DNA of 64,000 nucleotides, taken from Flavobacteriales bacterium (GTDB lineage Bacteria > Bacteroidota > Bacteroidia > Flavobacteriales_C > GCA-002722245). The notes beneath the pieces are model-generated. The model saw only the letters and a list, made by a program, of their open reading frames with translations, had not been told where the DNA came from and did not search any database. The translations under genes and the position numbers were made by a program. Each line of letters starts with the position of its first letter. Position 1 is the first letter of the stretch. The DNA lies in assembly GCA_023251075.1 (NCBI GenBank), contig JAHEZM010000009.1:25394-89393 (forward strand), read 5' to 3'. Below, piece by piece: positions 26,549 through 39,816 of this stretch.

Positions 26549-26649
26549 TGAGCTTCGAAGATATATCTAATCTCTTATTTGTACTAAGAATTAGCAGAGG
26601 AAGTATTAAGGGCGAATTGTTTATATTTCTTAAAATATATTTATTCAAT

Positions 26650-26683
26650 AAAAAACCGGCAAGTAGAAATTTCTACTTGCCGG
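26650..26683 (-). terminator. rho-independent terminator of the T9SS cargo gene
   Basis: 'ccggcaagtagaa-at-ttctacttgccgg' is a 13-bp perfect stem. On the minus strand it is followed by TTTTTT (plus-strand A-run 26650-26655), 24 nt after the stop at 26707. Confidence 0.8.
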
Positions 26684-26706
26684 TCTTAATGGTACGGTAA
26701 TAAATT

Positions 26707-28782
26707 TTAGTTCTGTATAACCAATGGAATACTATTGCTTTGGTTGTTGTAAGAAATCTTTATAAAATAAAGTCCGTTACTCAACGATTCACAAGAAATA
26801 GGAATATTGTTTCCATTCATACCATTGGTAATAAAAGGCAGAAGCACTTCTTTTCCTACTGCATCATGAACGCTGATGGTTATATTTTGAGTTGATTCTA
26901 ATCCAGAGAGGATAATATTTGAACTTCCATTGCTTGGATTAGGATATACTTGGAATGAATAGGAAGAAGCATTAATATTTTCTGTGCCTGTACAAGTAAA
27001 GCTGTAGATATTAACGGTATCAGTACTAGTGCAAGAACCATCGGTAACTATCAGTTGAAAAACACCTGAATCGGAAACAGAAATAGAAGGTGCTGTAGAA
27101 ATAATTTGGTTAGTGGTTAGATTTTTCCACTGATAGGTGCTATGATTGTAGAGCGATCCAATTGTAATTGGTTGATTTTTACATATTGATGTATCGCCTT
27201 TATTGATATGAGCGCTGTTTGTATTTCCTAATGTTACATTTACTGAGTCACTGGCTTTACAACCTGAAGGATATGCAGCTTCAACGTAATAGCTACCACT
27301 ACTATACACCGTAGTAATTTTATTATACGAAATAATATTTGAGTTTTTCGACCAGATAGCGGATTGCACATTTCCAGCATCCAATACAGCATAATAGTAG
27401 CACGATTGCACATCAGGCAAATTTAATTTAGGAGCACTCACTTCAGTAATTACAGCAGAATCAGTAGCGCTACACCCCGCATTATTACTTACGGTTACTG
27501 AATAGTTGCCAGCACCTACGCGTATGCTAGAACTACTCGCACTATTGTTCCATAAAATAGAGTAAATTGTGGCATCGTAACCTGTGCTCAGGTAAATAGA
27601 ATCGCCAGTACAAATTATAGAGTCGCTAATATTTAAAGGCAAGGATTGGTTGTTGATGAAATTCACAGAATCTGACAAAGTACAGGTATTGCTGATAGCT
27701 ATTCTTGCTACATAAACACCCGGTGTTGATAGTGAAATAGATTGGTTTATTCCAATCAAATTATTATTCGAATACCATTCATAAGAAAGAAATCCATTTT
27801 GAGCAGTGTAAATGAAAGGGGTTTGAGAACAAACTAAAGTATCATGCATTTGACTCCCAAAATTTAGTGGGTTATAGTTGAGTGTTATTGTGGCGGAATC
27901 TTTTGTGATGCATCCACCAGGAGATGTAATGGTAAGATTATATTTCCCAGAGCTATGCATATAGATGTTTTTAGTGTATTCAAAACCATTAGGTGTTTGC
28001 CAAACAAAAGAACTGTTGTTCCCTCCTTGAATATTGGTTTGGATACCACCTGTACCACAAGTAGTGCTATCTTGCAAATCGTAGTTAAACCCATTGTTAG
28101 ATGAGACAACAAATTTACCAAGCACATTACAGCCATTATTTTGAGTAGTAAATAAATATTCACCCGCCGTATTAACTGTTAAATTTGAATCTACAACATT
28201 ATTCCCCCAATTCACTATTCCATTTCCACTTCGTAAAGTAATATTTTGTCCGTTACAAATGTTTGCAAATTGTGTATTTAAGTGAACTGTATCAACAACT
28301 ACAACAGTTACACTGTCTGTTGTTGAGCAACCTTCTTCTGTTGCCGTTACTATATAATCTCCACCCTTGTTTACCACTAAGGTACTATCGGTTCCACTTC
28401 CCGCTCCTGTCCATAGAAAGGACAAGTTGGTACTATTATAATCGAAATAATAATTAGGATGAAGGGTATAATTTTGACCATTACAAATACTAATCGTTTG
28501 TTGGGGCATACTAATAAGAGGCGCGTGTTTTATAATAATAGACATGGTAGCGCTATCATTACCTACCCGATATTTTATAAGGGGAGTACCAAAGGTAATA
28601 GAAGGGTCAAACGTTCCTGTAATTGGATTGGTAATACCGTTTCCACTCCAATATCCTCCAGTCTGACTCGCTGTGAGTGTTATTGGAGAGGCATTCCTGC
28701 AAATAGGATTTACCGGGGTGATGGACACTTGTGCCATCAGAGTTGAATTAATCGCAATGAGCAATAATAAAAGTTTTTTCAT
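26707..28782 (-). CDS. secreted multi-domain (Ig-like/beta-sandwich repeats) protein with a type-A T9SS C-terminal sorting domain
   Basis: 691 aa with a signal peptide and repeated Cys-containing roughly 80-aa modules. The C-terminus 'YSFQVYPNPSNGSSNIILSGLESTQNITISVHDAVGKEVL...GLYFIKISYNNQSNSIPLVIQN' matches the Por_Secre_tail (TIGR04183) pattern. Confidence 0.7.
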   Translation of the reverse strand: MKKLLLLLIAINSTLMAQVSITPVNPICRNASPITLTASQTGGYWSGNGITNPITGTFDPSITFGTPLIKYRVGNDSATMSIIIKHAPLISMPQQTISICNGQNYTLHPNYYFDYNSTNLSFLWTGAGSGTDSTLVVNKGGDYIVTATEEGCSTTDSVTVVVVDTVHLNTQFANICNGQNITLRSGNGIVNWGNNVVDSNLTVNTAGEYLFTTQNNGCNVLGKFVVSSNNGFNYDLQDSTTCGTGGIQTNIQGGNNSSFVWQTPNGFEYTKNIYMHSSGKYNLTITSPGGCITKDSATITLNYNPLNFGSQMHDTLVCSQTPFIYTAQNGFLSYEWYSNNNLIGINQSISLSTPGVYVARIAISNTCTLSDSVNFINNQSLPLNISDSIICTGDSIYLSTGYDATIYSILWNNSASSSSIRVGAGNYSVTVSNNAGCSATDSAVITEVSAPKLNLPDVQSCYYYAVLDAGNVQSAIWSKNSNIISYNKITTVYSSGSYYVEAAYPSGCKASDSVNVTLGNTNSAHINKGDTSICKNQPITIGSLYNHSTYQWKNLTTNQIISTAPSISVSDSGVFQLIVTDGSCTSTDTVNIYSFTCTGTENINASSYSFQVYPNPSNGSSNIILSGLESTQNITISVHDAVGKEVLLPFITNGMNGNNIPISCESLSNGLYFIKISYNNQSNSIPLVIQN

Positions 28783-28928
28783 AAGACGTAAATAATTAAT
28801 AGTTGATCTAATAGTTAATCAGTAGATGCAATCATCATAAATAGGTTGCATCGAAAAAACAACGTGTTTAATTATTTATCATAGAAAATGATTAATGCCA
28901 ACGATATGAGTGAGTGTAAAATAACAAA

Positions 28929-29702
28929 CTAAAAATTCGCCTTTCTTTTTTCCAAAAATGCAGTAGTTCCTTCCGTAAAATCTTTGGTGCCGAAGCATTC
29001 TCCGAATAATTTTATTTCTTCCGCAAAACCACTCACACCATCGGTGTAATTGGCATTTACCGCTTTAATGGCAGAACTTAATGCCATAGGAGAATTTTTG
29101 ATTATTTTTTTTGCGATGTCGTTCGCTTTAGTGAGCAATTCCAAAGAAGGAACAACATGATTCACCAAGCCATAATGCAAGGCTGTTTTCGAATCAATCA
29201 TTTCTGCAGTGAGAATCATTTCCATTGCTTTCGATTTCCCTATCAACTGTGGTAAACGCTGAGTTCCCCCATAACCAGGTATAACGCCTAATCCTACTTC
29301 AGGTAAGCCCATTTTTGCATTTTCAGATGCAATGCGAATATGACAAGCCATCGCCAATTCCAGTCCGCCGCCCAAGGCAAATCCGTTGATGGCAGCAATT
29401 ACAGGTTTTGTAAAATGGGCTACTTTATCGAATAACAATTCATGACCTTTTGCACTCAGTTGTTTTCCTTGTTCAGTGGAAAATTGCGCAAATTCTTTAA
29501 TGTCGGCACCTGCCACAAAAGCTTTTTCTCCTGCGCCTGTGATGATTAATACACGGCATGAATTATCGCTTTCCAAAGAAGTTAATACTGTATTTAATTC
29601 TTCAATGGTTTGTTTGTTGAGCGCATTGAGTTGTTGTGGACGGTTGATAGTGATGGTAGCAATTCCATCATTAATTTGTGAAAGAATGTTGGTGTAAGAC
29701 AT
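28929..29702 (-). CDS. enoyl-CoA hydratase/isomerase (crotonase) family protein
   Basis: 'ITINRPQQLNALN', 'LIITGAGEKAFVAGADIKE' and 'AAINGFALGGGLELAMACHIRIAS' are present. The ORF-track start at 29759 runs into the palindromic repeat ('MVVILRHEGT'). The internal ATG at 29702 is the likely true start. Confidence 0.85.
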   Translation of the reverse strand: MSYTNILSQINDGIATITINRPQQLNALNKQTIEELNTVLTSLESDNSCRVLIITGAGEKAFVAGADIKEFAQFSTEQGKQLSAKGHELLFDKVAHFTKPVIAAINGFALGGGLELAMACHIRIASENAKMGLPEVGLGVIPGYGGTQRLPQLIGKSKAMEMILTAEMIDSKTALHYGLVNHVVPSLELLTKANDIAKKIIKNSPMALSSAIKAVNANYTDGVSGFAEEIKLFGECFGTKDFTEGTTAFLEKRKANF

Positions 29703-29725
29703 AATTTTGGCTTTGATGTGTTGGG

Positions 29726-29807
29726 CAATAGTTCCTTCGTGCCTCAGGATGACAACCACAGTACAGACAAGTTTTGTATGTCATCCTGAGGCACGAAGGA
29801 ACTATTG
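29726..29807. repeat. palindromic intergenic repeat element, copy 2 (29-bp perfect inverted arms, 24-nt spacer)
   Basis: The left arm 'CAATAGTTCCTTCGTGCCTCAGGATGACA' (29726-29754) and right arm 29779-29807 are exact reverse complements. The core is identical to copy 1 at 14154-14245. It lies between the ROK kinase stop and the enoyl-CoA hydratase start. Confidence 0.85.
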
Positions 29808-29816
29808 TCCTGTATA

Positions 29817-30779
29817 TTATTTTCTTCCTTTTGAAACTTCTTCGGCTGCTAATGCTGCTGCACCAACAATGGCAGCATTGGGGCCAGGTAAAGTTGACTT
29901 CAATAATTTTACTTTCCCTTTCCACATGTGCAACATAAATTCGTTCATGTATTTTTCGGTTGGAACCAGCAATACTTCATTTGCTTTAACCATTCCACCA
30001 TAAAGAATAATGGCTTCCGGACGAGTTATCGCTACCAAGTTTGCCAAACCGATACCTAATTTCCTTGCTGTGAAATCAAATATTTCAATCGCCAATTGAT
30101 CACCATCTCTTGCTGCATCACCAATCATTTTTCCGGTTATATTTTCTTTACCTACTGCTTTTAAAGTTGAATTGCCTGTGTAGTTTTCAGCCATTTGTCG
30201 GGCAGTATTTACTAGGCCGGTAACAGAAGCATAAGTTTCCAAACAACCATATCTTCCGCAGTTGCAGAGGCGTCCGTTTTCTTCAATAATGATGTGTCCG
30301 AGTTCTCCGGCAAAGCCGTCGTGCCCGTAAACCATTTCATCGTTCACCACTACTCCTGAGCCCACTCCGGTGCCTAAAGTAATTACTGCGAAATCGCGCA
30401 TTCCTTTAGCAGCACCAAATAGTTTTTCTCCAATCGCTGCAGCATTGGCATCATTGGTAACATAAGTAGATAATCCTGTTCTTTTTTCAATTTCTTTTTT
30501 CAAAGGTAAATCACCTCTCCACAAGAGATTCACGGCTTCCTGAATCATCCCGTTATAGTAATTCGCGTTAGGTGCACCTATGCCAATACCTAAACATTCT
30601 TTGTCTTTGTTGGCGTTGATAATGGTTTTAATTTCGTCAGATAAAGTATCTACAAACATTTCAAAAACGGGATAGGCTTTTGTTGACAAATTTTTGTAAG
30701 CTACAACGTGTCCCTTTTCATCAACTAATCCAATTTCTGTGTTGGTTCCTCCAATGTCGATTCCGATAGTGTATTTCAT
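29817..30779 (-). CDS. ROK-family sugar kinase (glucokinase / N-acetylglucosamine kinase-like)
   Basis: 320 aa. 'IGIDIGGTNTEIGLV' is the ATP-binding motif. 'CNCGRYGCLETY' is the ROK zinc-binding CxCGxxGCxE motif. Confidence 0.85.
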   Translation of the reverse strand: MKYTIGIDIGGTNTEIGLVDEKGHVVAYKNLSTKAYPVFEMFVDTLSDEIKTIINANKDKECLGIGIGAPNANYYNGMIQEAVNLLWRGDLPLKKEIEKRTGLSTYVTNDANAAAIGEKLFGAAKGMRDFAVITLGTGVGSGVVVNDEMVYGHDGFAGELGHIIIEENGRLCNCGRYGCLETYASVTGLVNTARQMAENYTGNSTLKAVGKENITGKMIGDAARDGDQLAIEIFDFTARKLGIGLANLVAITRPEAIILYGGMVKANEVLLVPTEKYMNEFMLHMWKGKVKLLKSTLPGPNAAIVGAAALAAEEVSKGRK

Positions 30780-30788
30780 ATTTTGTTT

Positions 30789-33700
30789 TTATTGATCATT
30801 ATTATTGGGTAATTCAACAAAGAAAGTAGTTCCGATATTTTCGGTGCTTTCGAACCAAATTTTACCATCGATACCTTCAATCATTTTCTTCACCATAGCC
30901 AAACCTAAGCCCATGCCTGAATTCTTGGTGGTGAAATTAGGAATAAAAATTCTGTCTTTATCTTCTTCTGAAATTCCTTTTCCATTGTCCTGAATTTCAA
31001 CTAAAATTTTATCGTTAATATTTTTCAATTGTAAAGATATTTTCCCCGTTCTACCTTCAGGTATAGCTTGTATAGCATTTTTCACGAGGTTGTTAAACAC
31101 CCTCAACATTTGATCTTTATCTCCTTTTATTAAAGTATTTATTGCGTTATTTTCCACATAAATATTTACTTCTTCTTTATCGGAATATAGTTGTTGGCAA
31201 TTTTCTATAATGTTAAGCATATCTACTGTTTCGAGAATAGGATCGGGCATGCGTGCGAAGTTTGAAAATTCGGTAGCGATGTTAGAAAGCGTATCAATTT
31301 GGTCGATTAAACTTTTTGAAATTTTAGTGAGTCGTTCTTCAAATTCCTCTTTCGATATGTCGTTGTATAAGCGAGTTAAATATTGCACATTTAATTTCAT
31401 GGGGGTGAGCGGATTTTTTATTTCATGTGCCACCTGTTTTGCCATTTCACGCCATGCTCCTTCGCGTTCCGATTTTGCTAATTTCTCAGCACTTTCCGTA
31501 AGTTCTAAAACTTTTCTGTTGTATTCATTTACCAAATTCCCAATTTCATCATTGCTCTTCCACTCAATAATTTCATTGTGTTTTCCAATGGATATAGATT
31601 TTAATTTTTGTTGAATGAAGCTAAGTGGGCGCGTAATATAAGAAGAAACCAACAGTGCAGTAAGTAAAGAAAAAATCACTAAAATTCCATAAATGTTAAT
31701 GAGTGCAATCATAAAGGAAGAAATCTCATTGCTTAATTCATCGTGATGCGAAAAGTATGGTAAATTCAAGTATCCTACGAGTTCTCCTGAATCTTTGTGA
31801 AATGGATAATAGGCTGAAAGATATTCTAAACTTTCAATATTTTCTGTTTGTGTATAAACAGTTTTATTGTTGAAACGCATTTCCACAAAAGCCTGCGGAT
31901 TGATATTGGTAGATAGCAGCCCTTCAGAAAACAATTCATTTCTGGAGGAAGCAATAATTTTTCCCTTGGTATCGTACAGGTTAATATCGGTGAAAAATAC
32001 TTTCGAAAATCGATCTAAAGTTTCTCTAATAAATTCAGGGTTATCATAGGCTTTTTTTCTTGAAAGCCGCCTTTCTACTTCGAGGTTTACTGATTTTATT
32101 TTTTCAATAATATTGTCTGCATTTTTTTTGTCGTATTGTTTATTGATAAAGTAAACAGAACTAATTCCTATCAATGTTCCTGAGAAAAACAAAAGTGTAA
32201 GCATGCTAAATTGCAATCGACTTTTAAAGGAAGCCTGAGCAGTGTTTTTCGCTCTTATATAACTTACGGCATAAATACAAAGTGCGATAAAACTAAACAG
32301 CAAAAACAAAAAAGAATAGCTTGAAAAATAATGCCAAATGCCCCCCGATTCTTTAGAAAGAATTAAAATTGATCCGTTGTTTCTTTTGTGAAAAAGATGA
32401 TTGTAATCGTTGAATTCCTTCCATTGAAACTCGTTATGTAAGGTGTCGCTTAAAGAATTAAATATTTCGGGATAGGAATAATTTCCTTGTTGGTAAACCA
32501 ATTTGTTGTTGATGTATTTAGCTATAGAGTAAGCACGATCCAGTGTATTGTTTTCTGTTTGTTTATTTACCAGAAGTAGTGGATATCCTAAATCATCAGA
32601 AATATTTTTAGGAATCATTAATACAAAAACATTTTGTTTTCCGGTAGATTGTAAAATGCCGAAGTAAGCGGAAGCTCCTTGAATGTTTTCTGAATGAAAA
32701 AGATTTTTACGAATCATTTCCATGGAGTTCATCAAACTGTCGGTAGTAATATGAATATCATATTTCGCCCAATATTTTTCGAAGCAGGTGTTGTGAATGT
32801 ATTGTTCTAATTTTAAAGTGTCGTTTTCTAACTTAAGAAGAGTATCTGCGTTCAGTTTTTCTTGGATATTTGCAAATAAATATTCAGCAATAGGATCTCT
32901 CTCAGTAGCCATTAGTAAGGCTTTTTGTGTGCGCTTATCTTTTTCTTTTACATCAATATATTTTTCAATGGTTACCGATGTAAACAGGGATAGCAGTAGT
33001 AATAAGCCAATAGTAGAATTTAATTCAAAGGAAGAATGATTTTTGTAAACACGATAAATGATCACAGCAATTAAGGGAACCGAAAGCACTAAGCTATAAA
33101 CATCCTCTTTATCGCTATTCATTAAAAGCACAAAGAACACCGTGCATATGGCTACTAAAGTGGTAACAATGTTTTTCCATTCTATGTTTAATTCTTTTAA
33201 AATTTTTACTCCCCAGGTGAGTAATTGTGTGTAGGAATACAGAAGAATGATAATACATAAGAAAGCTAAAAAGCTGTATCCATCTAGAGTAAAAATTTGT
33301 TTAATGTCGAGCTGAACATTAGAGTTGAATACCAATAATTCTATTTGTTCAGCAACATTCCAGGAGGCAAAAAGAAATAGAAAGCAAAAACAAAAAGAAA
33401 AGAGATAAGTACGAGTTTTGCTAAGATTTTTTTCCTTTGGTAAATTAAATTTTTGGGAGAAAATAAATTGTACAAATACCAAAATAAAAATACTATGTAT
33501 AAAAAAATCTCCTAATGAAGGAAGCCAATTGGAATAGGCAAAAAACTCTGGATTCATCATCGAATGATTGTACCAGTGAAAAGGAAATGATAACCACAGC
33601 ATTCCGGCTCTCAGCGCAAATAGTACGATGGCCAAGGTAAGCGATTTCAGTACCGGATTTAATACACTTTGCTTAAAGTATAGGTATATCGCAAGAAGTA

Positions 33701-34406
33701 AAACGAGCAATGAAATGAATTCAATAACAAATAAGAAATTATCATTTTGATATTCATTTAAATTCGTATTGTTTTTTAGTTGAAGATAGTTTCCTGCTAA
33801 CGATTTTATTTCTGTTTTTCCTTTGCTTATTTCTACTTTCCACTGATGATCAATATTGTAATTATTTGCAAAATAGGGAGTGATATAAGAGTTCTCATAA
33901 CGATGTTCTTTTTTAATTAGAAGCAAGGCAATTATTTTTTTGCCTTTACCGGCATCTAAAGTATATTTTTCATAAAAGCCAGCAGCGTTTTGAAAGAACC
34001 CATCTTGCTGAGTAATAATATTTTCGGTGGGTTCAGAGTTGGTGCTCCATAATTTTAGTGAAGAATCTTGTACTACGAATAAAGAAAGTTGATGTTGTTT
34101 AAATAAACTTTTAAAGTGCGCAGAGTTGTTTTGAAATATCTCTTCGTAATTATTACTGCTTAGATTTTTTGAGAGTAGTATGCATTCTTCAACCACTAAC
34201 TTTTGTTCCTTTTTGAGTTGTGTGGAAAATTCATCTAATTTCCTGTTGAATTGCTGAACGTCATTATCCAGCCAAAAGGAAATGGATGCTATCAATAACC
34301 CGGCAATGGCAAGGACAAAGAGAATGTATATGTTTTTCTTTTTAACTTTCACATTGCTGTTTCCAACTAGTTGTTTTTGCCTTCCGGACGGAATGGATAA
34401 GCCCAC
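30789..34406 (-). CDS. large multi-TM sensor histidine kinase (periplasmic sensor + 7TM-like block + HAMP-like + HisKA + HATPase; no receiver domain)
   Basis: 1205 aa. The layout is an N-terminal TM, about 180 aa periplasmic, then about 8 TM helices, a second membrane block, and 'HEIKNPLTPMKLNVQYL' (H-box). The C-terminus has 'DNGKGISEEDKDRIFIPNFTTK...GMGLGL' (N/G1/G2 boxes). The start may be the GTG at 34353, since the ORF-track start overlaps the upstream gene by 40 bp. Confidence 0.85.
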   Translation of the reverse strand: MGLSIPSGRQKQLVGNSNVKVKKKNIYILFVLAIAGLLIASISFWLDNDVQQFNRKLDEFSTQLKKEQKLVVEECILLSKNLSSNNYEEIFQNNSAHFKSLFKQHQLSLFVVQDSSLKLWSTNSEPTENIITQQDGFFQNAAGFYEKYTLDAGKGKKIIALLLIKKEHRYENSYITPYFANNYNIDHQWKVEISKGKTEIKSLAGNYLQLKNNTNLNEYQNDNFLFVIEFISLLVLLLAIYLYFKQSVLNPVLKSLTLAIVLFALRAGMLWLSFPFHWYNHSMMNPEFFAYSNWLPSLGDFFIHSIFILVFVQFIFSQKFNLPKEKNLSKTRTYLFSFCFCFLFLFASWNVAEQIELLVFNSNVQLDIKQIFTLDGYSFLAFLCIIILLYSYTQLLTWGVKILKELNIEWKNIVTTLVAICTVFFVLLMNSDKEDVYSLVLSVPLIAVIIYRVYKNHSSFELNSTIGLLLLLSLFTSVTIEKYIDVKEKDKRTQKALLMATERDPIAEYLFANIQEKLNADTLLKLENDTLKLEQYIHNTCFEKYWAKYDIHITTDSLMNSMEMIRKNLFHSENIQGASAYFGILQSTGKQNVFVLMIPKNISDDLGYPLLLVNKQTENNTLDRAYSIAKYINNKLVYQQGNYSYPEIFNSLSDTLHNEFQWKEFNDYNHLFHKRNNGSILILSKESGGIWHYFSSYSFLFLLFSFIALCIYAVSYIRAKNTAQASFKSRLQFSMLTLLFFSGTLIGISSVYFINKQYDKKNADNIIEKIKSVNLEVERRLSRKKAYDNPEFIRETLDRFSKVFFTDINLYDTKGKIIASSRNELFSEGLLSTNINPQAFVEMRFNNKTVYTQTENIESLEYLSAYYPFHKDSGELVGYLNLPYFSHHDELSNEISSFMIALINIYGILVIFSLLTALLVSSYITRPLSFIQQKLKSISIGKHNEIIEWKSNDEIGNLVNEYNRKVLELTESAEKLAKSEREGAWREMAKQVAHEIKNPLTPMKLNVQYLTRLYNDISKEEFEERLTKISKSLIDQIDTLSNIATEFSNFARMPDPILETVDMLNIIENCQQLYSDKEEVNIYVENNAINTLIKGDKDQMLRVFNNLVKNAIQAIPEGRTGKISLQLKNINDKILVEIQDNGKGISEEDKDRIFIPNFTTKNSGMGLGLAMVKKMIEGIDGKIWFESTENIGTTFFVELPNNNDQ

Positions 34407-35041
34407 GAAGCCATAGGTGATGCCTTACGCGTTTGAATCCAAACTTTTCCTTCACCGCTGAATTTACAAACCAATCCTTCACCTGAAAAGAACAAGGATT
34501 TATATCCGCCAAATCGTGTAACACGATAACTTAAGCCACCGGTAAATGCAACAATATTTCCTGTATCTACTACATAAGAATCCTTTACATCAATTTCGAT
34601 GATGCCACCAAAAGAATTAAACCAAAGATCTCCTGTGCCTGTGCATTGTGCTAAAAATAAACTTTCACCGCTGAAGAAGCCTTTAAATCCCTGCCATTTA
34701 GAATCTACTTTTACAGTGGGCGCAGAAGCAACATAGCCTGAACTTTGCAAATACAAAGTTTCATTTCCATTGAGTTTATAATGTACCAAATCGCCAGGAG
34801 AAGCGGGTGCAATTTTAATTTCTGCATCGCCATTTTCTGCAGTGAAATCATTAATGAAAATAGATTCACCGGTTAAAAATCTACCGAAGCCACCTTTCAA
34901 CTTAGTTTTCATTTTAAGGTTGGTATCCATAGTAGCCATTGCCGATGCTTCCACATTTAATGTTTTTCCAGAAGGAATTTTAACGGTGAGCAGTGCGTAA
35001 TCGGGAGCGCCTTCAATATAATGTTCAAATGAGTTTTCCAT
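34367..35041 (-). CDS. AIM24/TIGR00266 (DUF124) family protein, paralog 3
   Basis: 224 aa. It contains 'TGESIFINDFTAENG', 'PGDLVHYKLNG', 'GESLFLAQCTGTGDLWFNSFGGI', 'VVDTGNIVAF' and 'GEGLVCKFSGEGKVWIQT'. This is the characteristic duplicated GES/GEG...GxGxV pattern of the AIM24 family. Confidence 0.8.
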   Translation of the reverse strand: MENSFEHYIEGAPDYALLTVKIPSGKTLNVEASAMATMDTNLKMKTKLKGGFGRFLTGESIFINDFTAENGDAEIKIAPASPGDLVHYKLNGNETLYLQSSGYVASAPTVKVDSKWQGFKGFFSGESLFLAQCTGTGDLWFNSFGGIIEIDVKDSYVVDTGNIVAFTGGLSYRVTRFGGYKSLFFSGEGLVCKFSGEGKVWIQTRKASPMASWAYPFRPEGKNN

Positions 35042-35068
35042 ATTATTCTAAATATTTTTTGTTTTGAA

Positions 35069-35746
35069 TTATCTTGGTTTTAATCCTGGAGTTAAATTGA
35101 AGCCAAATGAGCTTTCGTTGTGTGATTGGCACCAAACAGTTCCTTTTCCTTTGAAGCGACAAATTAATCCTTCACCACCAAAGTAGGAATTGATCCATGA
35201 GGAGCCAGCAGTACCGATACTAAAATTCAATGTTTCCTGAAAGGCAACAATATGGCCGGTATCCACCACATATTCACCATCTACTTCTATAGGATAAATG
35301 GCGCCAAATGAATTTAAAATTACTGTTCCTTTTCCTGATGCGCTCAGCCAAAAAGAGCTTTCACCAGAGAATAAAGATTTAAATCCTTGCCAGTTAAAAT
35401 CAATATTTACATCATGATCAGAGGCAACATAAGAACCTGCCTGCACAATTAATTTATCTCCATTTAATTCGTAAGTGAACATATCTCCCGGCAATGTAGT
35501 TCCTAAGTAAACTTCACCTGCCTGAGCTCCTGCGGTAAAATGATTTAAGAAGAAACTTTCTCCTGATAACATTCTTTTTAATGCCTTGATAATTCCTCTC
35601 TGATCTTTTTTATGCGTAGTGGTTTGTACTTGTAAATTATCACTCATAGCAATCATTGCACCTGCTTCTGCAGTGAATGATTCTCCTGCCTGCAAAGTAA
35701 CTTTTGCCGATGCAGCACCTGGTCCTTTTTCTATTTTTACGTTCAT
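35069..35746 (-). CDS. AIM24/TIGR00266 (DUF124) family protein, paralog 2
   Basis: 225 aa. It contains 'SGESFFLNHFTAGAQ', 'GESSFWLSASGKGTVILNSFGAI', 'VVDTGHIVAF' and 'GEGLICRFKGKGTVWCQS'. Confidence 0.8.
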   Translation of the reverse strand: MNVKIEKGPGAASAKVTLQAGESFTAEAGAMIAMSDNLQVQTTTHKKDQRGIIKALKRMLSGESFFLNHFTAGAQAGEVYLGTTLPGDMFTYELNGDKLIVQAGSYVASDHDVNIDFNWQGFKSLFSGESSFWLSASGKGTVILNSFGAIYPIEVDGEYVVDTGHIVAFQETLNFSIGTAGSSWINSYFGGEGLICRFKGKGTVWCQSHNESSFGFNLTPGLKPR

Positions 35747-35756
35747 AATTTTTTGA

Positions 35757-36416
35757 TTAAAAGAATTTATTCAACCATTTGGTTAACCCGCTAACACTTC
35801 TAGATTGAATGATTATTTTTCCTTTTCCTTCCACACGGGTAACGAGTCCTTCCCCTCCAAAAAAGCTGGAGAAAATGCCTCCCGATAATTGCATTTTCAA
35901 TTTCATTTGAGGTTCGTAGCCTACTAAATGACTAGAATCTACAATGTATTCACCATCAATTTCTTTTTCAATCAATGCGCCATATGCACCATAAATTACT
36001 TTTCCGCTTCCGCTTACCTGAAGTTTGAATAAGCCTTCTCCTCCTACGAATGAAGCGATTCCAGCCCATTTAACACCTAGTTTTATGCCGGGTGTAGAAG
36101 CAACATAACTTCCACCTTGTAAACAATAACTTCCGTCATTCAATTCCAATACCCTCATGTCGCCGGGAGTAGGTTGTGTTAGAGTTACTCTTTTTACCTG
36201 ATTGCTGGTGTTGGTGATATGATTTACGAAGAAACTTTCTCCACCTACATATTTTTTCACCAGTCCGCCAATAATGCCACCATTGGTTTTGGCCGTCATT
36301 TGTAATTCTGCAGCCATACTGGCCATAGCATCGGCTTCTGCAATAATTGTTTCACCGGGTTGTAGCTCTACATTGATGTAGGTAAACGCGGGTTGTCCTG
36401 CTAAATTGATTTCCAT
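35757..36416 (-). CDS. AIM24/TIGR00266 (DUF124) family protein, paralog 1
   Basis: 219 aa. It contains 'GGESFFVNHITNTS', 'GEGLFKLQVSGSGKVIYGAYGAL', 'IVDSSHLVGY' and 'GEGLVTRVEGKGKIIIQS'. Confidence 0.8.
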   Translation of the reverse strand: MEINLAGQPAFTYINVELQPGETIIAEADAMASMAAELQMTAKTNGGIIGGLVKKYVGGESFFVNHITNTSNQVKRVTLTQPTPGDMRVLELNDGSYCLQGGSYVASTPGIKLGVKWAGIASFVGGEGLFKLQVSGSGKVIYGAYGALIEKEIDGEYIVDSSHLVGYEPQMKLKMQLSGGIFSSFFGGEGLVTRVEGKGKIIIQSRSVSGLTKWLNKFF

Positions 36417-36417
36417 A

Positions 36418-37536
36418 TTAATCTTTATCTAAATCTGTTTTTAAGCGCTTTTTAAAAGTATCAAAAGAATTTTTAAAAGTGATGAATTCTTGATTTTTTA
36501 ATTCATTTTTCTTTTTACTTAGCAGTTCAATTCTTTCTCCAATGGCGGGGTGACTACTCACCAACGAAGTGAGCTCTTCGGTATCTTTATCTTCAGGATA
36601 TTCTTTTTGCAATTTTTTAAACATACCAATCATTCCCTCGGGATTGATTTTGGCTTTCAGTAAATATTCCCAACCCGTTTCATCTGATTCGGTTTCGTAT
36701 TCTCTGCTTGTTTTCAAAGAAGTTAACGATCCGCTTGCCTGAGCTAGGGTTCCCATAATGGCGCTGGCATCACCTACAAAAGAGGAGAGCACTACGTAAA
36801 TGCCTAAGTTGGAAATGATACTGCGAACATGATGGCGTTGTGTGCAATGAGAAAGTTCATGCGCTAAAACACCCATTAATTCTTCCCATGAAGCTGCCTT
36901 TTGAATAATGCCAGAGTGAATTACCACATTTCCTCCGGGCATGGCAAAAGCGTTCATGGTGGGATTGTTGGCAATGTAAAATTTAAAATGAAAGGAAGTA
37001 TCGCCTACTGCATTTACCAATGGTTGTAAGGTTTGTGTGAGCTCAGCAATTAAGGCTGAATCTTCAATGAGTTTGTATTCTGCTTTTACTTGTAAAAAAA
37101 GTTTATCACCAATTTCTCTTTCCCACGATTGTGGCACTTGGTTCGCCACTCCTTTAACCATTACTTTTCTGAAAATAAAAATGCATAAAATAACGGCGAC
37201 AAAAAAGCCTATAATACTTAACCAGATGGTCCAGTTAATCGCTCGTTTTTTATTCACTTGCTTTACTCCACTTTTTGCATGATCGTGGTAATGTAAATTG
37301 GGATCTTTCAGTATTTTTTTGTCGGTAGTATAAAAGGAGATATCAGGATAATTAGGATGTTTAAAATAGATTAATCTATCGGAAGCTCCACCAATACTAA
37401 TTTCTGTTTGTGCTAGGGAGAATCGAATTCTTTCTTCATCGAATTTGAAAACAAGGTCACTTAACCCAATTTCAATTTCTACACTTTTTCTTCCCGAAGG
37501 AAATCGATTAGAGATTGCAATTCCTTGATATATCAT
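36418..37536 (-). CDS. M48-family zinc metalloprotease with an N-terminal roughly 100-aa cytoplasmic domain and a single TM anchor
   Basis: 372 aa with 'VLAHELSHCTQRHH' (HExxH) and a downstream 'ETESDETG' glutamate. A TM helix 'WTIWLSIIGFFVAVILCIFIF' follows a soluble N-terminal domain of unknown function. The stop codon is 2 nt from the next gene's start. Confidence 0.8.
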   Translation of the reverse strand: MIYQGIAISNRFPSGRKSVEIEIGLSDLVFKFDEERIRFSLAQTEISIGGASDRLIYFKHPNYPDISFYTTDKKILKDPNLHYHDHAKSGVKQVNKKRAINWTIWLSIIGFFVAVILCIFIFRKVMVKGVANQVPQSWEREIGDKLFLQVKAEYKLIEDSALIAELTQTLQPLVNAVGDTSFHFKFYIANNPTMNAFAMPGGNVVIHSGIIQKAASWEELMGVLAHELSHCTQRHHVRSIISNLGIYVVLSSFVGDASAIMGTLAQASGSLTSLKTSREYETESDETGWEYLLKAKINPEGMIGMFKKLQKEYPEDKDTEELTSLVSSHPAIGERIELLSKKKNELKNQEFITFKNSFDTFKKRLKTDLDKD

Positions 37537-37657
37537 AGTGATTTTGCGGTTGGCTTAAACTTCTGGTGCAATGATAGTTAATTTATGTTGTGCAAGAAAT
37601 ATACATTATGCTAAAATATGTTGAATTAGGTGTTAAATTCGCAACAAAATTATTGTA

Positions 37658-39106
37658 GTGCAGCAAAACAAACGAATTTATTTTTTTAGCATTTTACTTT
37701 TTGTAATTACCGCTTATTTCTCGGTGGGCTCTTTTGAATATGATGAGCATACGCAGGTTTTAGAGTTTGGGGGAATGAAGCTGGGAATAGTGGATGAAAG
37801 TACATTATCGTGGGAGTATGCTGCTAAAATGCGACCATCGATTCAGCCTTTGATGGTGTACTGTACACACAAAATTTTAGCGGTGGTGGGGGCAGATAAT
37901 CCTTTCACAGTGCCTTTTGTTTTACGACTTTTTGCGGCGGCACTTTCTCTTTTAAGTATTCATCTTTTACTCAAAGCTTTTCAAGATAAATTTACTGGAG
38001 AGAAAGCGCGATGGAATTTTTTTCTGCTCTCTTTTTTCCTTTGGTTTTCTGTTTATCATGCTGTACGATTCTCTTCTGAAAACCTTTCTGGCAGAACTTT
38101 TGTCATTGCCTTTGCTTTGTTTTTTCTGTGGAAAGAAAAAAACTTAAAACAGCATTTTTTTATTGGATTGATTTTAGGGTTCTCGTTTTTATTTAGATAT
38201 CAAACCGGATTTTTGATCGCTGGATTTATGGCGTGGATGCTGTTTATCAATAAAACAAAATGGCGTGAATTATTTTCAATAATGTTGGGAATATTAGCTG
38301 TTTTTGCCTTGGGAGTTGTGATCGATTATTGGTTTTATAACGAGTGGGTTTTAAGCACTTGGGAATACTTCAGGCAAAATATCATTTTAGATAAAGCTTC
38401 CGGATTTGGCCGCGATCCGTGGTATTATTATTTGGTTCAGATTTTTAACAGAGGAATTCCTCCTTTTAGTTTACTTTATTTATTGCCTGTTGTGCTGCTG
38501 TTTTTCAAGCCTAAAAATGTTTTATTGTGGATCATTTTACCTTTTCTATTGTTGCATTTTTATATCCCTCATAAAGAACTTCGATTCTTCTTTCCACTGA
38601 TAGGGTTCATTCCTTTGCTGATCATGGAATCGGGCGAAATAATAAAGGAAAAATGGAATATTCTCCACAGCAAATTTTTTAAAGTAGCCAATGTTTTATT
38701 TTGGATTCACAACTTTGTTTTTCTGGCCATCATCTCTCTCAAATCGGCCGATGCTCAGGTTCCTATGTATGAATTAATATATAATAAATACACTGAGCCT
38801 ACGGTGATTTATTATGTGGAGCACAATCCTTATTCAAGAGCCAGAGAGGTATATTATTATAAAAGAAAAAACCTAGAAGTGCGAAAAGTAAATTCTATCA
38901 ATGAAGTAAAATCTTTGGCTGATACTACTGTTTTATTCGCTACTATCAATACCGAAGAAGCCAAACAAATGGATGCAACTCAAACTTTAATTTATTCTGC
39001 CTTGCCCAATTGGCTTAAGCATTTCAATGTTTTCAATTGGGTAGAGCGTACTAAATTTTGGAAGGTTTACCAGGTGGATAAAAAAGTTGAAGTGAATACA
39101 AAATAA
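37658..39106 (+). CDS. GT-C fold membrane glycosyltransferase, GT22-like (Alg9/PIG-B-type mannosyltransferase family)
   Basis: 482 aa with about 11 TM helices. The first-loop motif 'FEYDEHTQVLEF' matches the GT22 'DEHxQxLE' signature. Confidence 0.65.
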   Translation: MQQNKRIYFFSILLFVITAYFSVGSFEYDEHTQVLEFGGMKLGIVDESTLSWEYAAKMRPSIQPLMVYCTHKILAVVGADNPFTVPFVLRLFAAALSLLSIHLLLKAFQDKFTGEKARWNFFLLSFFLWFSVYHAVRFSSENLSGRTFVIAFALFFLWKEKNLKQHFFIGLILGFSFLFRYQTGFLIAGFMAWMLFINKTKWRELFSIMLGILAVFALGVVIDYWFYNEWVLSTWEYFRQNIILDKASGFGRDPWYYYLVQIFNRGIPPFSLLYLLPVVLLFFKPKNVLLWIILPFLLLHFYIPHKELRFFFPLIGFIPLLIMESGEIIKEKWNILHSKFFKVANVLFWIHNFVFLAIISLKSADAQVPMYELIYNKYTEPTVIYYVEHNPYSRAREVYYYKRKNLEVRKVNSINEVKSLADTTVLFATINTEEAKQMDATQTLIYSALPNWLKHFNVFNWVERTKFWKVYQVDKKVEVNTK

Positions 39107-39137
39107 AAATGCTCCCCGGGGAGGAGAGCACTTTATC
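39105..39137. terminator. bidirectional stem-loop terminator between convergent genes
   Basis: 'aaaaaTGCTCcccggggaggaGAGCActttat' is an A-tract, a hairpin centred on the CCCGGGG palindrome, then a T-tract. It lies right after the GT-C stop (39106) and downstream of the 39232 minus-strand gene. Confidence 0.6.
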
Positions 39138-39231
39138 ACCTAAAACTTAAACTATGAAAAAACTAACTTTACTAACTAACTATACTGGTTGAACGCTATT
39201 GAGAAAGTAAAGGTTTCATTTTTCTAAAAAA

Positions 39232-39816
39232 TTATTTTATTATTTCTTGAAGATCAATAGTGACGCTGCTTATAGCCGACTCAAAATTTTCGCTGTTGGA
39301 CAAATAACTCGGATTATTTCTTATTCCTAAAACGAAATTCTGTTTTTTCGAGCCCTGAGCATTCCAGATATAGTACCTATCCATACCATTAAATCCTTTT
39401 CCCAAGTGTGATGAATAATAATACAAAAGATCTTCATATAGATTTTTTCCTATGCTGTCATTGTCTACGTAAACGTCAATTGACGCACTCATAAGAACTT
39501 GGTTCTTATCAAAGAGGTATTCACTGAAAATACTATTATTTCCTAAAAATTGTTTGTATCCATCGGCAGATTTACCCTTAATGTAACGATCTCCTTTTTC
39601 TCTTAAAAAAACGCTGTCTTTATGATCTCCTATTTCAATACCTCTGATGGTTTTGGAGATTTTATTCTTTAAATCACTTACCACAGCGTAGAATAATGGT
39701 CCGCTTTTGTAAATGTGTTTTTCTGAGCTTTTGTTCAGCGTATTTTTTTTATCGGCATCTTCATTAGAACAGGAAATGAAAAATCCTATCAACAATATAA
39801 CTAGGAGGTTGCGCAT
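39232..39816 (-). CDS. hypothetical lipoprotein
   Basis: 194 aa with lipobox 'GFFISC|SNED'. No known motifs. Confidence 0.5.
   Translation of the reverse strand: MRNLLVILLIGFFISCSNEDADKKNTLNKSSEKHIYKSGPLFYAVVSDLKNKISKTIRGIEIGDHKDSVFLREKGDRYIKGKSADGYKQFLGNNSIFSEYLFDKNQVLMSASIDVYVDNDSIGKNLYEDLLYYYSSHLGKGFNGMDRYYIWNAQGSKKQNFVLGIRNNPSYLSNSENFESAISSVTIDLQEIIK

What the first reader, a model, noticed from the sequence alone, without database searches (positions are those of the whole stretch)
30789..37536. Uncharacterised operon: cytoplasmic-domain M48 protease + three tandem AIM24/TIGR00266 paralogs + 1205-aa orphan multi-TM histidine kinase
Five minus-strand genes are packed with 2-27-nt gaps or overlaps from 37536 to 30789. 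In order they are the M48 protease, AIM24 paralog 1, paralog 2, paralog 3, and the histidine kinase, so they are very likely co-transcribed. The three AIM24/DUF124 proteins are clearly paralogous but diverged. Each keeps the duplicated 'GES.F...' / 'GEGL.....GKG.VW.Q' half-motifs. They are only about 30% identical to one another, which argues for an old triplication rather than a recent duplication. The M48 protease has an extra roughly 100-aa cytoplasmic N-terminal domain before its single TM. The kinase has a large periplasmic domain plus about 8 TM helices, no receiver domain, and no response regulator anywhere in the window. Bacterial AIM24 proteins have no established function, and I know of no described system combining AIM24 with an M48 protease and a kinase. 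A divergently transcribed GT22-like mannosyltransferase sits just upstream at 37658. The whole cluster could be an envelope-stress or signal-processing module.
Basis: partly seen in the sequence, partly recalled or inferred. Interest (0 to 1): 0.7.

Follow-up and report, generated by a model that had tools for sequence, protein, structure and literature searches.

The report
Conserved M48 protease–three-AIM24 gene cassette
The real unit is a four-gene cassette, a membrane-anchored zinc protease plus three distinct AIM24 proteins of unknown function, kept together across many bacterial phyla, while the neighbouring histidine kinase is an unrelated neighbour.

Summary
All five ORFs and their domains are real. 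Comparison with about 85 related loci splits the proposed operon in two.

**The conserved unit.** M48–AIM24(A1)–AIM24(A2)–AIM24(A3) keeps the same order and strand in 65 of 71 testable loci. These come from Bacteroidota, Gamma- and Betaproteobacteria, Verrucomicrobiota and other phyla. The three AIM24 genes form clean, ancient orthogroups with 58–65% median identity across phyla.

**The kinase.** It follows the cassette only in the four closest relatives. Its own family sits in unrelated housekeeping contexts elsewhere. It is not part of the system, and neither are GT22, ROK or ECH.

**The protease.** It has a cytoplasmic PH-like domain found only in this M48 subfamily, one TM helix, and a BepA-like domain with intact catalytic residues that is predicted to be periplasmic. 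The AIM24 proteins have no signal peptide or TM segment, so they can reach the protease only through the PH-like domain.

**Best reading (inferred).** A hetero-oligomeric AIM24 scaffold on the inner face of the membrane partners with the protease, like other protease–scaffold membrane quality-control pairs.

**Status.** No published function for bacterial AIM24 was found, and databases give only generic names. The cassette is a good experimental handle on this family.

The parts
36418..37536 (-). M48 zinc metalloprotease, 372 aa: PH-like domain, one TM helix, then a BepA-like protease domain
37297..37536 (-). Cytoplasmic PH-like N-terminal domain (about residues 1-80, motif GGASDRLIFFxHP)
37171..37227 (-). 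Single transmembrane helix (residues 104-122), N-in / C-out
   Evidence: Kyte-Doolittle score 2.97 and the only hydrophobic segment in the protein. Across 64 orthologs the N-flank has more K/R in 54, equal in 7 and fewer in 3. By net charge it is more positive in 58, equal in 6 and never less positive.
36421..37131 (-). M48 catalytic domain, predicted periplasmic
   Evidence: HExxH (H226, E227, H230) and distal E281 are invariant in 34 homologs. The fold matches soluble M48 peptidases 3c37 and BepA.
36847..36861 (-). HExxH zinc-binding motif (residues 226-230)
   Evidence: Invariant columns in alignment A1.
35757..36416 (-). AIM24/TIGR00266 subunit A1 (219 aa)
   Evidence: PF01987 at 194.6 bits, TIGR00266 at 196 bits. 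Its own orthogroup has median 58-59% identity across phyla. No hydrophobic segment.
35069..35746 (-). AIM24/TIGR00266 subunit A2 (225 aa), with a group-specific insertion TTTHKK at residues 42-48
34367..35041 (-). AIM24/TIGR00266 subunit A3 (224 aa). Its orthologs in other phyla carry N-terminal extensions.
   Evidence: PF01987 at 214 bits. Orthogroup median identity 65%. Extensions: GYF_2 in Verrucomicrobia, a Ribosomal_L12-C-like region in Proteobacteria, and a Pro-rich repeat in Holophagales.
37537..37657 (.). Divergent intergenic region upstream of M48, the likely promoter region of the cassette
   Evidence: This is the only sizeable non-coding gap at the 5' end of the cassette. A TAATTTTG sequence lies near 37645-37652, read directly. 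It resembles a Bacteroidota -7 box from my own knowledge and was not tested. The sigma-70 scan found no enrichment.
30789..34406 (-). NOT part of the conserved unit: a multi-TM sensor histidine kinase of 1205 aa (or about 1187 aa). It is a lineage-specific downstream neighbour that may be co-transcribed here.
   Evidence: HisKA plus HATPase_c. Downstream of A3 only in L001-L004. Its family of about 1200-aa Bacteroidota kinases lies in unrelated contexts. No receiver domain in the window.

Best explanation
The functional unit is a four-gene cassette. The kinase is an incidental neighbour.

Shown here:
- The cassette encodes a membrane-anchored M48 zinc protease and three distinct, anciently diverged AIM24 proteins.
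- The four genes are inherited together, in fixed order, across many bacterial phyla.
- The protease has intact catalytic residues, a single TM helix, and an N-terminal PH-like domain found only in this M48 subfamily.
- The AIM24 proteins have no signal peptide or TM segment.

Inferred:
- Topology is N-in / C-out. The PH-like domain faces the cytoplasm and the BepA-like protease domain faces the periplasm.
- The three AIM24 paralogs assemble into a hetero-oligomer, most simply a 1:1:1 ring like the homotrimer modelled on bacterial AIM24 crystal templates.
- This complex sits at the cytoplasmic face of the inner membrane. It may use its three conserved but flexible GGE(S/G)(F/L) loops there.
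- It contacts the PH-like domain and so anchors, stabilises or gates the periplasmic protease.
- Overall it would be a protease-plus-oligomeric-scaffold module for membrane or envelope protein quality control. This is analogous in logic to SPFH/NfeD or HflKC/FtsH, and to eukaryotic AIM24 proteins that stabilise membrane complexes (MICOS and respiratory supercomplexes, Hrd1 ERAD).
For: Synteny:
- M48-A1-A2-A3 has the same order and strand in 65 of 71 loci with enough upstream sequence.
- It also occurs in Holophagales, Leptospiraceae, Lentisphaeraceae and Flammeovirga.
- No other neighbour recurs in more than 12 of 78 loci.

Unit inheritance:
- Pairwise-identity matrices of the four genes correlate at r 0.84-0.93.
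- Median gaps between genes are 2-10 nt.

Three subunits:
- The orthogroups are clean, with at least 46% identity within a group and at most 47% between groups.
- Median identity across phyla is 58-65%, against 35% for M48.
- This pattern fits non-interchangeable subunits under strong constraint.

Independent pairing:
- A 29%-identical M48 with the same N-domain-plus-TM layout lies directly downstream of a single AIM24 gene (sequence).

Protease:
- HExxH and E281 are invariant.
- The N-domain is restricted to M48 fusions.
- The positive-inside rule holds in 58 of 64 orthologs and is never reversed.

AIM24:
- No hydrophobic segments.
- The fold equals 1pg6 and 1yox.
- The conserved motifs coincide with low-pLDDT loops.
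- A homotrimer with a flat face was modelled from the bacterial templates, and PAWH stabilises Hrd1 (PMC6677890).

Not a mobile element:
- No PADLOC system matched.
- It is essentially absent from phages, and the triplet occurs on only two large non-mobilisable replicons.
Against: - No direct evidence for any physical interaction. A multimer prediction could not be run with the tools available.
- The triplet occurs without an adjacent M48 in 6 of 71 loci and in L086. An M48 of this type also occurs without adjacent AIM24 genes. The partnership is therefore not obligatory in cis.
- The PH-like domain is much less conserved (median 30%) than the AIM24 subunits (58-65%). This is not what a tight co-evolving interface predicts. 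The main constraint on AIM24 may come from another, more universal partner.
- The protease domain and the AIM24 proteins are predicted to lie in different compartments.
- Topology rests on the positive-inside rule only. In the window protein itself the bias is weak, at 4 versus 3 K/R.
- The oligomeric state of AIM24 comes from a modelling statement in a paper and was not verified here.
Confidence: 0.45

Rival explanations
1. The AIM24 triplet is an autonomous cytoplasmic or membrane-peripheral complex whose essential partner is something else, such as lipids, a housekeeping membrane complex, or a small ligand. M48 is only a frequently co-regulated accessory responding to the same condition and does not contact AIM24.
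For: - The triplet stands alone in 6 of 71 loci and in L086.
- AIM24 is far more conserved than M48 and its PH-like domain.
- A3 acquires different N-terminal adaptor domains in different phyla: GYF_2, L12-C-like and Pro-rich. This points to other partners.
- A related M48 occurs alone.
Against: - 92% co-localisation in fixed order, with gaps of a few nucleotides, across many phyla.
- An independent single-AIM24-plus-M48 pairing.
- The PH-like domain is unique to this M48 subfamily, and it is the only part of the protease in the same compartment as AIM24.
Confidence: 0.3
2. One reading: a five-gene envelope-stress or signal-processing operon in which the multi-TM histidine kinase works with M48 and the AIM24 proteins.
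For: - The kinase overlaps or abuts A3 on the same strand, with no terminator-like site between them in the scan. Co-transcription in this organism is therefore plausible.
- The arrangement is kept in four close relatives, L001-L004.
- Two Ser/Thr kinases follow the cassette in a Holophagales contig.
Against: - The kinase is absent next to the cassette in L005-L007 (AIM24 genes 82-86% identical to the window's) and in all other lineages.
- Members of the kinase family lie in unrelated housekeeping contexts.
- No response regulator is in the window.
- ROK and ECH are packed just as tightly downstream, so spacing is uninformative.
- In L001-L004 the kinase is 52-55% identical while its flanking genes are 84-98% identical.
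Confidence: 0.05
3. The cassette is a horizontally spreading stress or defence island, for example a protease-activated effector or a Ter-like chemical-stress module, in which the AIM24 proteins are effectors rather than scaffolds.
For: - AIM24 identity of 60-66% between distant phyla could reflect horizontal transfer.
- AIM24 genes have been reported next to TerD in ter clusters (PMC5822837, citing Anantharaman et al. 2012).
- A1 has a weak match to a PADLOC PycC model, E 4e-4.
- The cassette sits in different neighbourhoods in different genomes.
Against: - No PADLOC system matched.
- There are no Ter or other recurrent neighbours.
- It is essentially absent from phages and mobilisable plasmids.
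- The window shows no GC anomaly across the cassette.
- M48 identity shows some phylogenetic signal: 37-42% within Bacteroidota against 29-35% to Proteobacteria.
- The predicted periplasmic protease cannot reach cytoplasmic AIM24 proteins to cleave them.
Confidence: 0.08

Closest known systems
E. coli BepA (YfgC) and Geobacter sulfurreducens M48 peptidase Q74D82 (PDB 6ait/6sar, 3c37)
   Different: No TPR domain. The NCBIfam BepA equivalog scores 110 bits against a cutoff of 570. This protein is anchored by an N-terminal TM helix and has a cytoplasmic PH-like domain that BepA lacks. BepA is not encoded with AIM24 genes (own knowledge).
DUF7092-M48 peptidases (for example Janthinobacterium P0046)
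   Same: Same architecture: a small N-terminal domain, one TM helix, then an M48 domain. Recovered as distant homologs at 24-27% identity.
   Different: The window's N-domain does not match the DUF7092 HMM even at E<=10. The Janthinobacterium gene is paired with DUF898, not AIM24.
Structural-genomics AIM24 proteins SpyM3_0169 (1PG6) and PA3696 (1YOX)
   Different: Those entries are named only 'hypothetical protein' in the PDB and have no assigned function. Here there are three diverged paralogs in fixed order with a protease.
Eukaryotic AIM24 proteins: yeast Aim24 (MICOS and respiratory supercomplexes), Arabidopsis PAWH1/2 (Hrd1 ERAD complex)
   Same: Same domain family. They are membrane-associated factors that stabilise membrane protein complexes, and PAWH acts in a protein-degradation machine (PMC6677890; PMC10203443).
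   Different: The eukaryotic proteins are single genes or gene pairs, some with C-terminal TM helices. Their partner is a ubiquitin ligase or MICOS, not an M48 protease. The literature search found only co-mentions of AIM24 and Oma1 and no reported link.
Bacterial and archaeal protease-scaffold operons: SPFH (stomatin)/NfeD and HflKC-FtsH (own knowledge, not tested)
   Same: Same logic: a membrane protease encoded with an oligomeric membrane-face scaffold.
   Different: Unrelated folds. AIM24 is a triple TRAP-like beta-sandwich, not SPFH. The protease is M48, not a ClpP-like or AAA+ protease. The interaction here is hypothetical.
TerD-associated AIM24 genes of ter (tellurite-resistance) clusters
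   Same: Same AIM24 family. This is the only earlier genome-context prediction for bacterial AIM24 that I found (reported in PMC5822837).
   Different: No Ter or any other recurrent neighbour around the triplet. The original paper could not be read.

Membership tests
AIM24 / TIGR00266 (PF01987) | HMM score above the curated cutoff over the full domain | tested here: met
   PF01987 at 195-226 bits (cutoff 25.7). TIGR00266 at 195-211 bits (cutoff 96.6) for all three proteins.
AIM24 / TIGR00266 (PF01987) | Triple beta-sandwich (TRAP-like repeat) fold as in 1PG6 and 1YOX | tested here: met
Peptidase family M48 | HExxH plus a downstream Glu zinc ligand, and the M48 fold | tested here: met
BepA (beta-barrel assembly-enhancing protease) equivalog | Full-length NCBIfam equivalog score and a C-terminal TPR domain | tested here: not met
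   110 bits against a cutoff of 570. Only profile positions 45-261 of 483 are matched, and there is no TPR region.
HtpX | Equivalog score and a multi-TM topology with a cytoplasmic protease domain | tested here: not met
   At most 33 bits against cutoffs of 245-422. A single TM helix and a predicted extracytoplasmic protease domain.
DUF7092-M48 peptidases | N-terminal PF23368 (DUF7092) domain | tested here: not met
   No PF23368 match at E<=10 for residues 1-150, while P0046 and P0041 do match it. The architecture is the same, so a remote relationship is not excluded.
PH-like domain superfold | Seven-stranded beta-sandwich capped by a C-terminal helix | tested here: met
Two-component system operon (kinase functionally linked to the cassette) | Conserved linkage of the kinase with the cassette, and a cognate response regulator nearby | tested here: not met
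   The kinase is next to the cassette only in L001-L004. Kinase relatives lie in unrelated contexts. No receiver domain in 64 kb.
Known anti-phage defence systems (PADLOC) | Match to a defence-system protein model | tested here: not met
   No significant matches. The only hit is A1 against PycC at E 4e-4 over 67 residues.
Ter stress-response cluster | TerD, TerB, TerC or similar genes next to AIM24 | tested here: not met
   No neighbour family other than M48 recurs in more than 12 of 78 loci. TerD was not searched for explicitly in the window.
Protease-scaffold pairs (SPFH/NfeD, HflKC/FtsH) | SPFH-domain scaffold physically bound to its protease | not testable with these tools
   AIM24 is not an SPFH fold, so this is not a member. 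The analogy is functional only, and the interaction could not be tested.

The most novel reading that the evidence does not exclude
The three AIM24 paralogs form an obligate heterotrimeric ring that docks on the PH-like domain of a dedicated M48 protease. This would be a previously undescribed, phylogenetically widespread transmembrane proteolytic quality-control or signalling machine. It would give the first function for bacterial AIM24 (at least about 8,000 90%-identity clusters) and a prokaryotic precedent for the eukaryotic AIM24 scaffolds of MICOS and ERAD.
Probability: 0.3. Interest if true: 0.75.

Novelty: new variant of a known kind. Interest (0 to 1): 0.6.

Why it matters
AIM24/TIGR00266 is a very large family, with 7,984 clusters in a capped search. 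[quoted passage not shown] A 2019 paper states that nothing is known about the function of any bacterial member (PMC6677890), and archaeal members are listed among conserved "dark matter" (PMC6393860).

A strictly conserved operon ties three non-interchangeable AIM24 subunits to a catalytically intact, membrane-anchored M48 protease with a unique cytoplasmic PH-like domain. This gives concrete, testable hypotheses: a hetero-oligomer, docking on the PH-like domain, and control of periplasmic proteolysis. Cultured hosts are available, including Flammeovirga, Cellvibrio, Undibacterium and Breznakibacter.

It could also shed light on why eukaryotic AIM24 proteins stabilise membrane complexes in mitochondria and the ER.

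Tried and rejected
1. Hetero-oligomer modelling of A1-A2-A3 was not run. MAFFT would stack all single-domain homologs onto one repeat of a concatenated query. Paired rows taken from loci are not admissible to the structure tool, and a single-sequence run would be uninformative.
2. The 2012 Anantharaman/Iyer/Aravind Ter paper is not held, whether requested by DOI or by PMC id.
3. Pfam on the M48 N-domain at E<=10 gave nothing relevant, including DUF7092.
4. The small ORFs flanking the M48-less triplet in L086 were tested as possible stand-alone PH-like domains. There was no support (blastp E 0.99, no Pfam match).
5. The sigma-70 promoter and terminator scan of 26000-39500 showed no enrichment over shuffles. 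It is not suited to Bacteroidota promoters.
6. Rfam at gathering thresholds found nothing in the window.
7. The literature search for a link between AIM24 and Oma1 returned only co-mentions by title and abstract.
8. The PADLOC defence scan was negative.
9. The mobile-element idea was checked against plasmids and phages and rejected.
Full report
**Observation.**
- The five minus-strand ORFs are at the stated coordinates. They were called identically on the source contig by an independent gene caller.
- Pfam and NCBIfam confirm the domains: an M48 peptidase (36418-37536), three AIM24/TIGR00266 proteins (A1 35757-36416, A2 35069-35746, A3 34367-35041), and a 1205-aa kinase with C-terminal HisKA and HATPase_c domains (30789-34406).
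- Gaps between genes are 1, 10 and 27 nt. The kinase either overlaps A3 by 40 nt or starts 14 nt after it, at an in-frame GTG at 34352.
  - The paralogs are 35-40% identical.
  - The conserved motif occurs three times, not twice. This matches the three beta-sandwich repeats of the fold (PMC6677890).
  - The kinase has about 12 hydrophobic segments.
  - Tight same-strand packing continues into a ROK glucokinase (9-nt gap) and an enoyl-CoA hydratase, so spacing does not define a five-gene unit.
- No receiver domain is detectable in the 64 kb, and there are no further AIM24 or M48 copies.

- A scan of one genome per species with A2 returned 78 loci. tblastn mapping of the window's proteins onto them shows M48-A1-A2-A3 in the same order and orientation in 65 loci.
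- Seven more loci are cut off upstream by the contig end. Six really lack M48: L020, L023, L024, L041 and L078 (Verrucomicrobia-like) and L076 (Flavobacteriales).
- By record title the carriers include Flavobacteriales, Flammeovirga, Breznakibacter, Chitinophagaceae, Cellvibrio, Teredinibacter, Undibacterium, Niveibacterium, Verrucomicrobiota, and MAGs labelled Planctomycetota, Fibrobacter and Pseudobdellovibrionaceae.
- Neighbourhood look-ups added Holophagales, Leptospiraceae and Lentisphaeraceae, all with the full cassette. They also added one Bacteroidota genome with the triplet alone. A curated Flammeovirga record annotates the four genes only as "M48 family metallopeptidase" and "TIGR00266 family protein".
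- All-against-all clustering of every ORF in the 78 loci found no other neighbour in more than 12 loci.

**The kinase.**
- It follows A3 only in L001-L004, the closest relatives, together with ROK and ECH. In L005-L007, where the AIM24 genes are still 82-86% identical to the window's, a PorP/SprF gene on the other strand follows A3.
- GT22 is next to the cassette in no other locus.
- A search with the kinase's sensor region found a Bacteroidota family of kinases of about 1200-1250 aa. Three members on long contigs sit beside YbeY/GidA, rhomboid/SPOUT methyltransferase, or ATP synthase/PGI genes. None has an AIM24, M48 or receiver gene nearby.
- The kinase is therefore an incidental, lineage-specific neighbour. 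It may still be co-transcribed here.

**The AIM24 triplet.**
- Orthologs of A1, A2 and A3 form three clean groups. Identity within a group has a median of 59-65% and a minimum of 46%. Identity between groups has a median of 34-37% and a maximum of 47%. The triplication therefore predates the spread across phyla, and each copy is strongly constrained.
- M48 orthologs are only about 35% identical, yet the pairwise-identity matrices of all four genes correlate at r 0.84-0.93. Median gaps between genes are 2-10 nt. The cassette is inherited as one unit.
- The AIM24 proteins have no hydrophobic segment.
- The three most conserved motifs lie in the three lowest-confidence short helix/loop segments of the model. 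That pattern is typical of elements that become ordered on binding a partner or a membrane (inference).
- PMC6677890 reports that modelling on the bacterial templates suggests a homotrimer with a flat face. It also states that nothing is known about the function of any bacterial AIM24.
- The family is very large, with 7,984 clusters in a capped search, all named only "TIGR00266 family protein".

**The protease.**
- HExxH (H226, E227, H230) and E281 are invariant in 34 homologs, so the enzyme should be active.
- The AF2 model (pLDDT 84.9) shows seven strands plus a helix (residues 1-80), one long helix containing the only TM segment (104-122), and an M48 domain.
- The protein is not a BepA or HtpX equivalog, and its N-domain does not match DUF7092.
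- An exhaustive search with the N-domain alone found only 155 representative clusters among 1.84 billion proteins. All ten sampled hits are M48 fusions.
- In the window protein the charge bias around the TM helix is weak. Across 64 orthologs the N-terminal flank has more K/R in 54, and a higher net charge in 58 with no reversals. I infer that the PH-like domain is cytoplasmic and the protease domain periplasmic.

**Additional links.**
- A 29%-identical M48 with the same N-domain-plus-TM layout lies directly downstream of a single 319-aa AIM24 gene. This is an independent AIM24-M48 pairing.
- A DUF7092-type M48 pairs with DUF898 instead.
- One Verrucomicrobiota M48 of this type stands alone.

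**Mechanism (inferred).**
- AIM24 proteins are cytoplasmic, and the only cytoplasmic part of the protease is a PH-like domain unique to this subfamily. The simplest model is that an A1/A2/A3 hetero-oligomer at the inner face of the membrane contacts that domain. It would anchor, stabilise or gate the periplasmic protease.
- This would be a protease-plus-scaffold quality-control module. It parallels SPFH/NfeD and HflKC/FtsH (own knowledge), and eukaryotic AIM24 proteins that stabilise MICOS or respiratory supercomplexes and the Hrd1 ERAD complex (PMC6677890).
- Points against the model:
  - The triplet exists without M48 in about 8% of testable loci.
  - The PH-like domain (30% median identity) is far less conserved than AIM24.
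  - No interaction was tested.
- The main rival is that AIM24 has another primary partner and M48 is a co-regulated accessory.
- The mobile or defence-island idea is disfavoured:
  - No PADLOC system matched.
  - It is essentially absent from phages, and the triplet occurs on only two large non-mobilisable replicons.
  - The window shows no GC anomaly.
  - There are no Ter neighbours.

**Novelty.**
- Full-text searches for AIM24, DUF124, TIGR00266, PF01987, and AIM24 with TerD or with Oma1 found no description of this cassette or of any bacterial AIM24 function.
- The only earlier context prediction I found is an association with TerD.
- The component families are known. Their conserved association, the three-subunit organisation and the PH-like domain on the protease appear undescribed in the literature I could search.
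- I rate it a new variant of a known kind (a protease-scaffold module), interest 0.6.

Noticed in passing
L078:10704-11636, L020:10684-11604, L016:10697-11632, L055:10696-11754, L083:3335-4226: A3 orthologs carry lineage-specific N-terminal extensions that are absent in the window. Verrucomicrobia loci lacking M48 have a GYF_2 domain. Proteobacteria have a 90-130-aa region weakly resembling the C-terminal domain of ribosomal protein L12. Holophagales have an open frame of about 297 aa of PGAPQPG-type proline-rich repeats. GYF domains bind Pro-rich peptides in eukaryotes (own knowledge), so the complementarity is curious.
   Followed up: partly
L080:5030-7125 and L081:3145-5240: A single 319-aa AIM24 gene, with N- and C-terminal low-complexity tails, lies directly upstream of a distantly related M48 (29% identity) that has the same N-domain-plus-TM layout. 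This is a minimal two-gene version of the association.
   Followed up: partly
L079:4934-7026: A DUF7092-M48 peptidase in Janthinobacterium is translationally coupled to a DUF898 membrane protein (3-nt gap). This looks like a parallel pairing of a small N-domain/TM/M48 protease with a partner.
   Followed up: no
window 30789-34406; L001-L004: The kinase is only 52-55% identical to its orthologs in L001-L004, while the flanking AIM24, ROK and ECH genes are 84-98% identical. So the sensor evolves fast. Its family of about 1200-aa multi-TM Bacteroidota kinases had no adjacent response regulator in the three contexts examined.
   Followed up: partly
window 34352-34406: The kinase start is uncertain. 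The GTG at 34406 overlaps A3 by 40 nt. An in-frame GTG at 34352 would give MKVKKKN... followed directly by the first TM helix, with a 14-nt gap after the A3 stop.
   Followed up: no
window 35069-35746 (A2 residues 45-65, 121-130, 181-190): The most conserved AIM24 motifs, GGE(S/G)(F/L) repeated three times, coincide with the lowest-pLDDT short helix/loop segments of the model. They may be partner- or membrane-binding elements.
   Followed up: partly
window 35757-36416 (A1 residues 32-98): Weak match to the PADLOC PycC (Pycsar cyclase) model at positions 213-280, E 4e-4. Probably spurious, or a shared beta-rich segment.
   Followed up: no
L083:5118-8722; L085:3150-3821: Two Ser/Thr protein kinase genes follow the cassette in a Holophagales contig. 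A 223-aa protein with weak similarity to Kdo/WaaP-type kinases precedes M48 in Lentisphaeraceae. This is too sparse to call an association.
   Followed up: no
window 26707-28782 (minus strand): A 691-aa Cys- and Asn-rich repeat protein has a C-terminus that looks like a type IX secretion sorting domain. I read this from the translation and did not test it. It fits a Bacteroidota (Flavobacteriales) origin, as do the record titles of L001-L007.
   Followed up: no
L076:7984-9117: In one Flavobacteriales MAG the gene upstream of the triplet is a MoxR-type AAA+ ATPase (AAA_3, AAA_lid_2) instead of M48.
   Followed up: no
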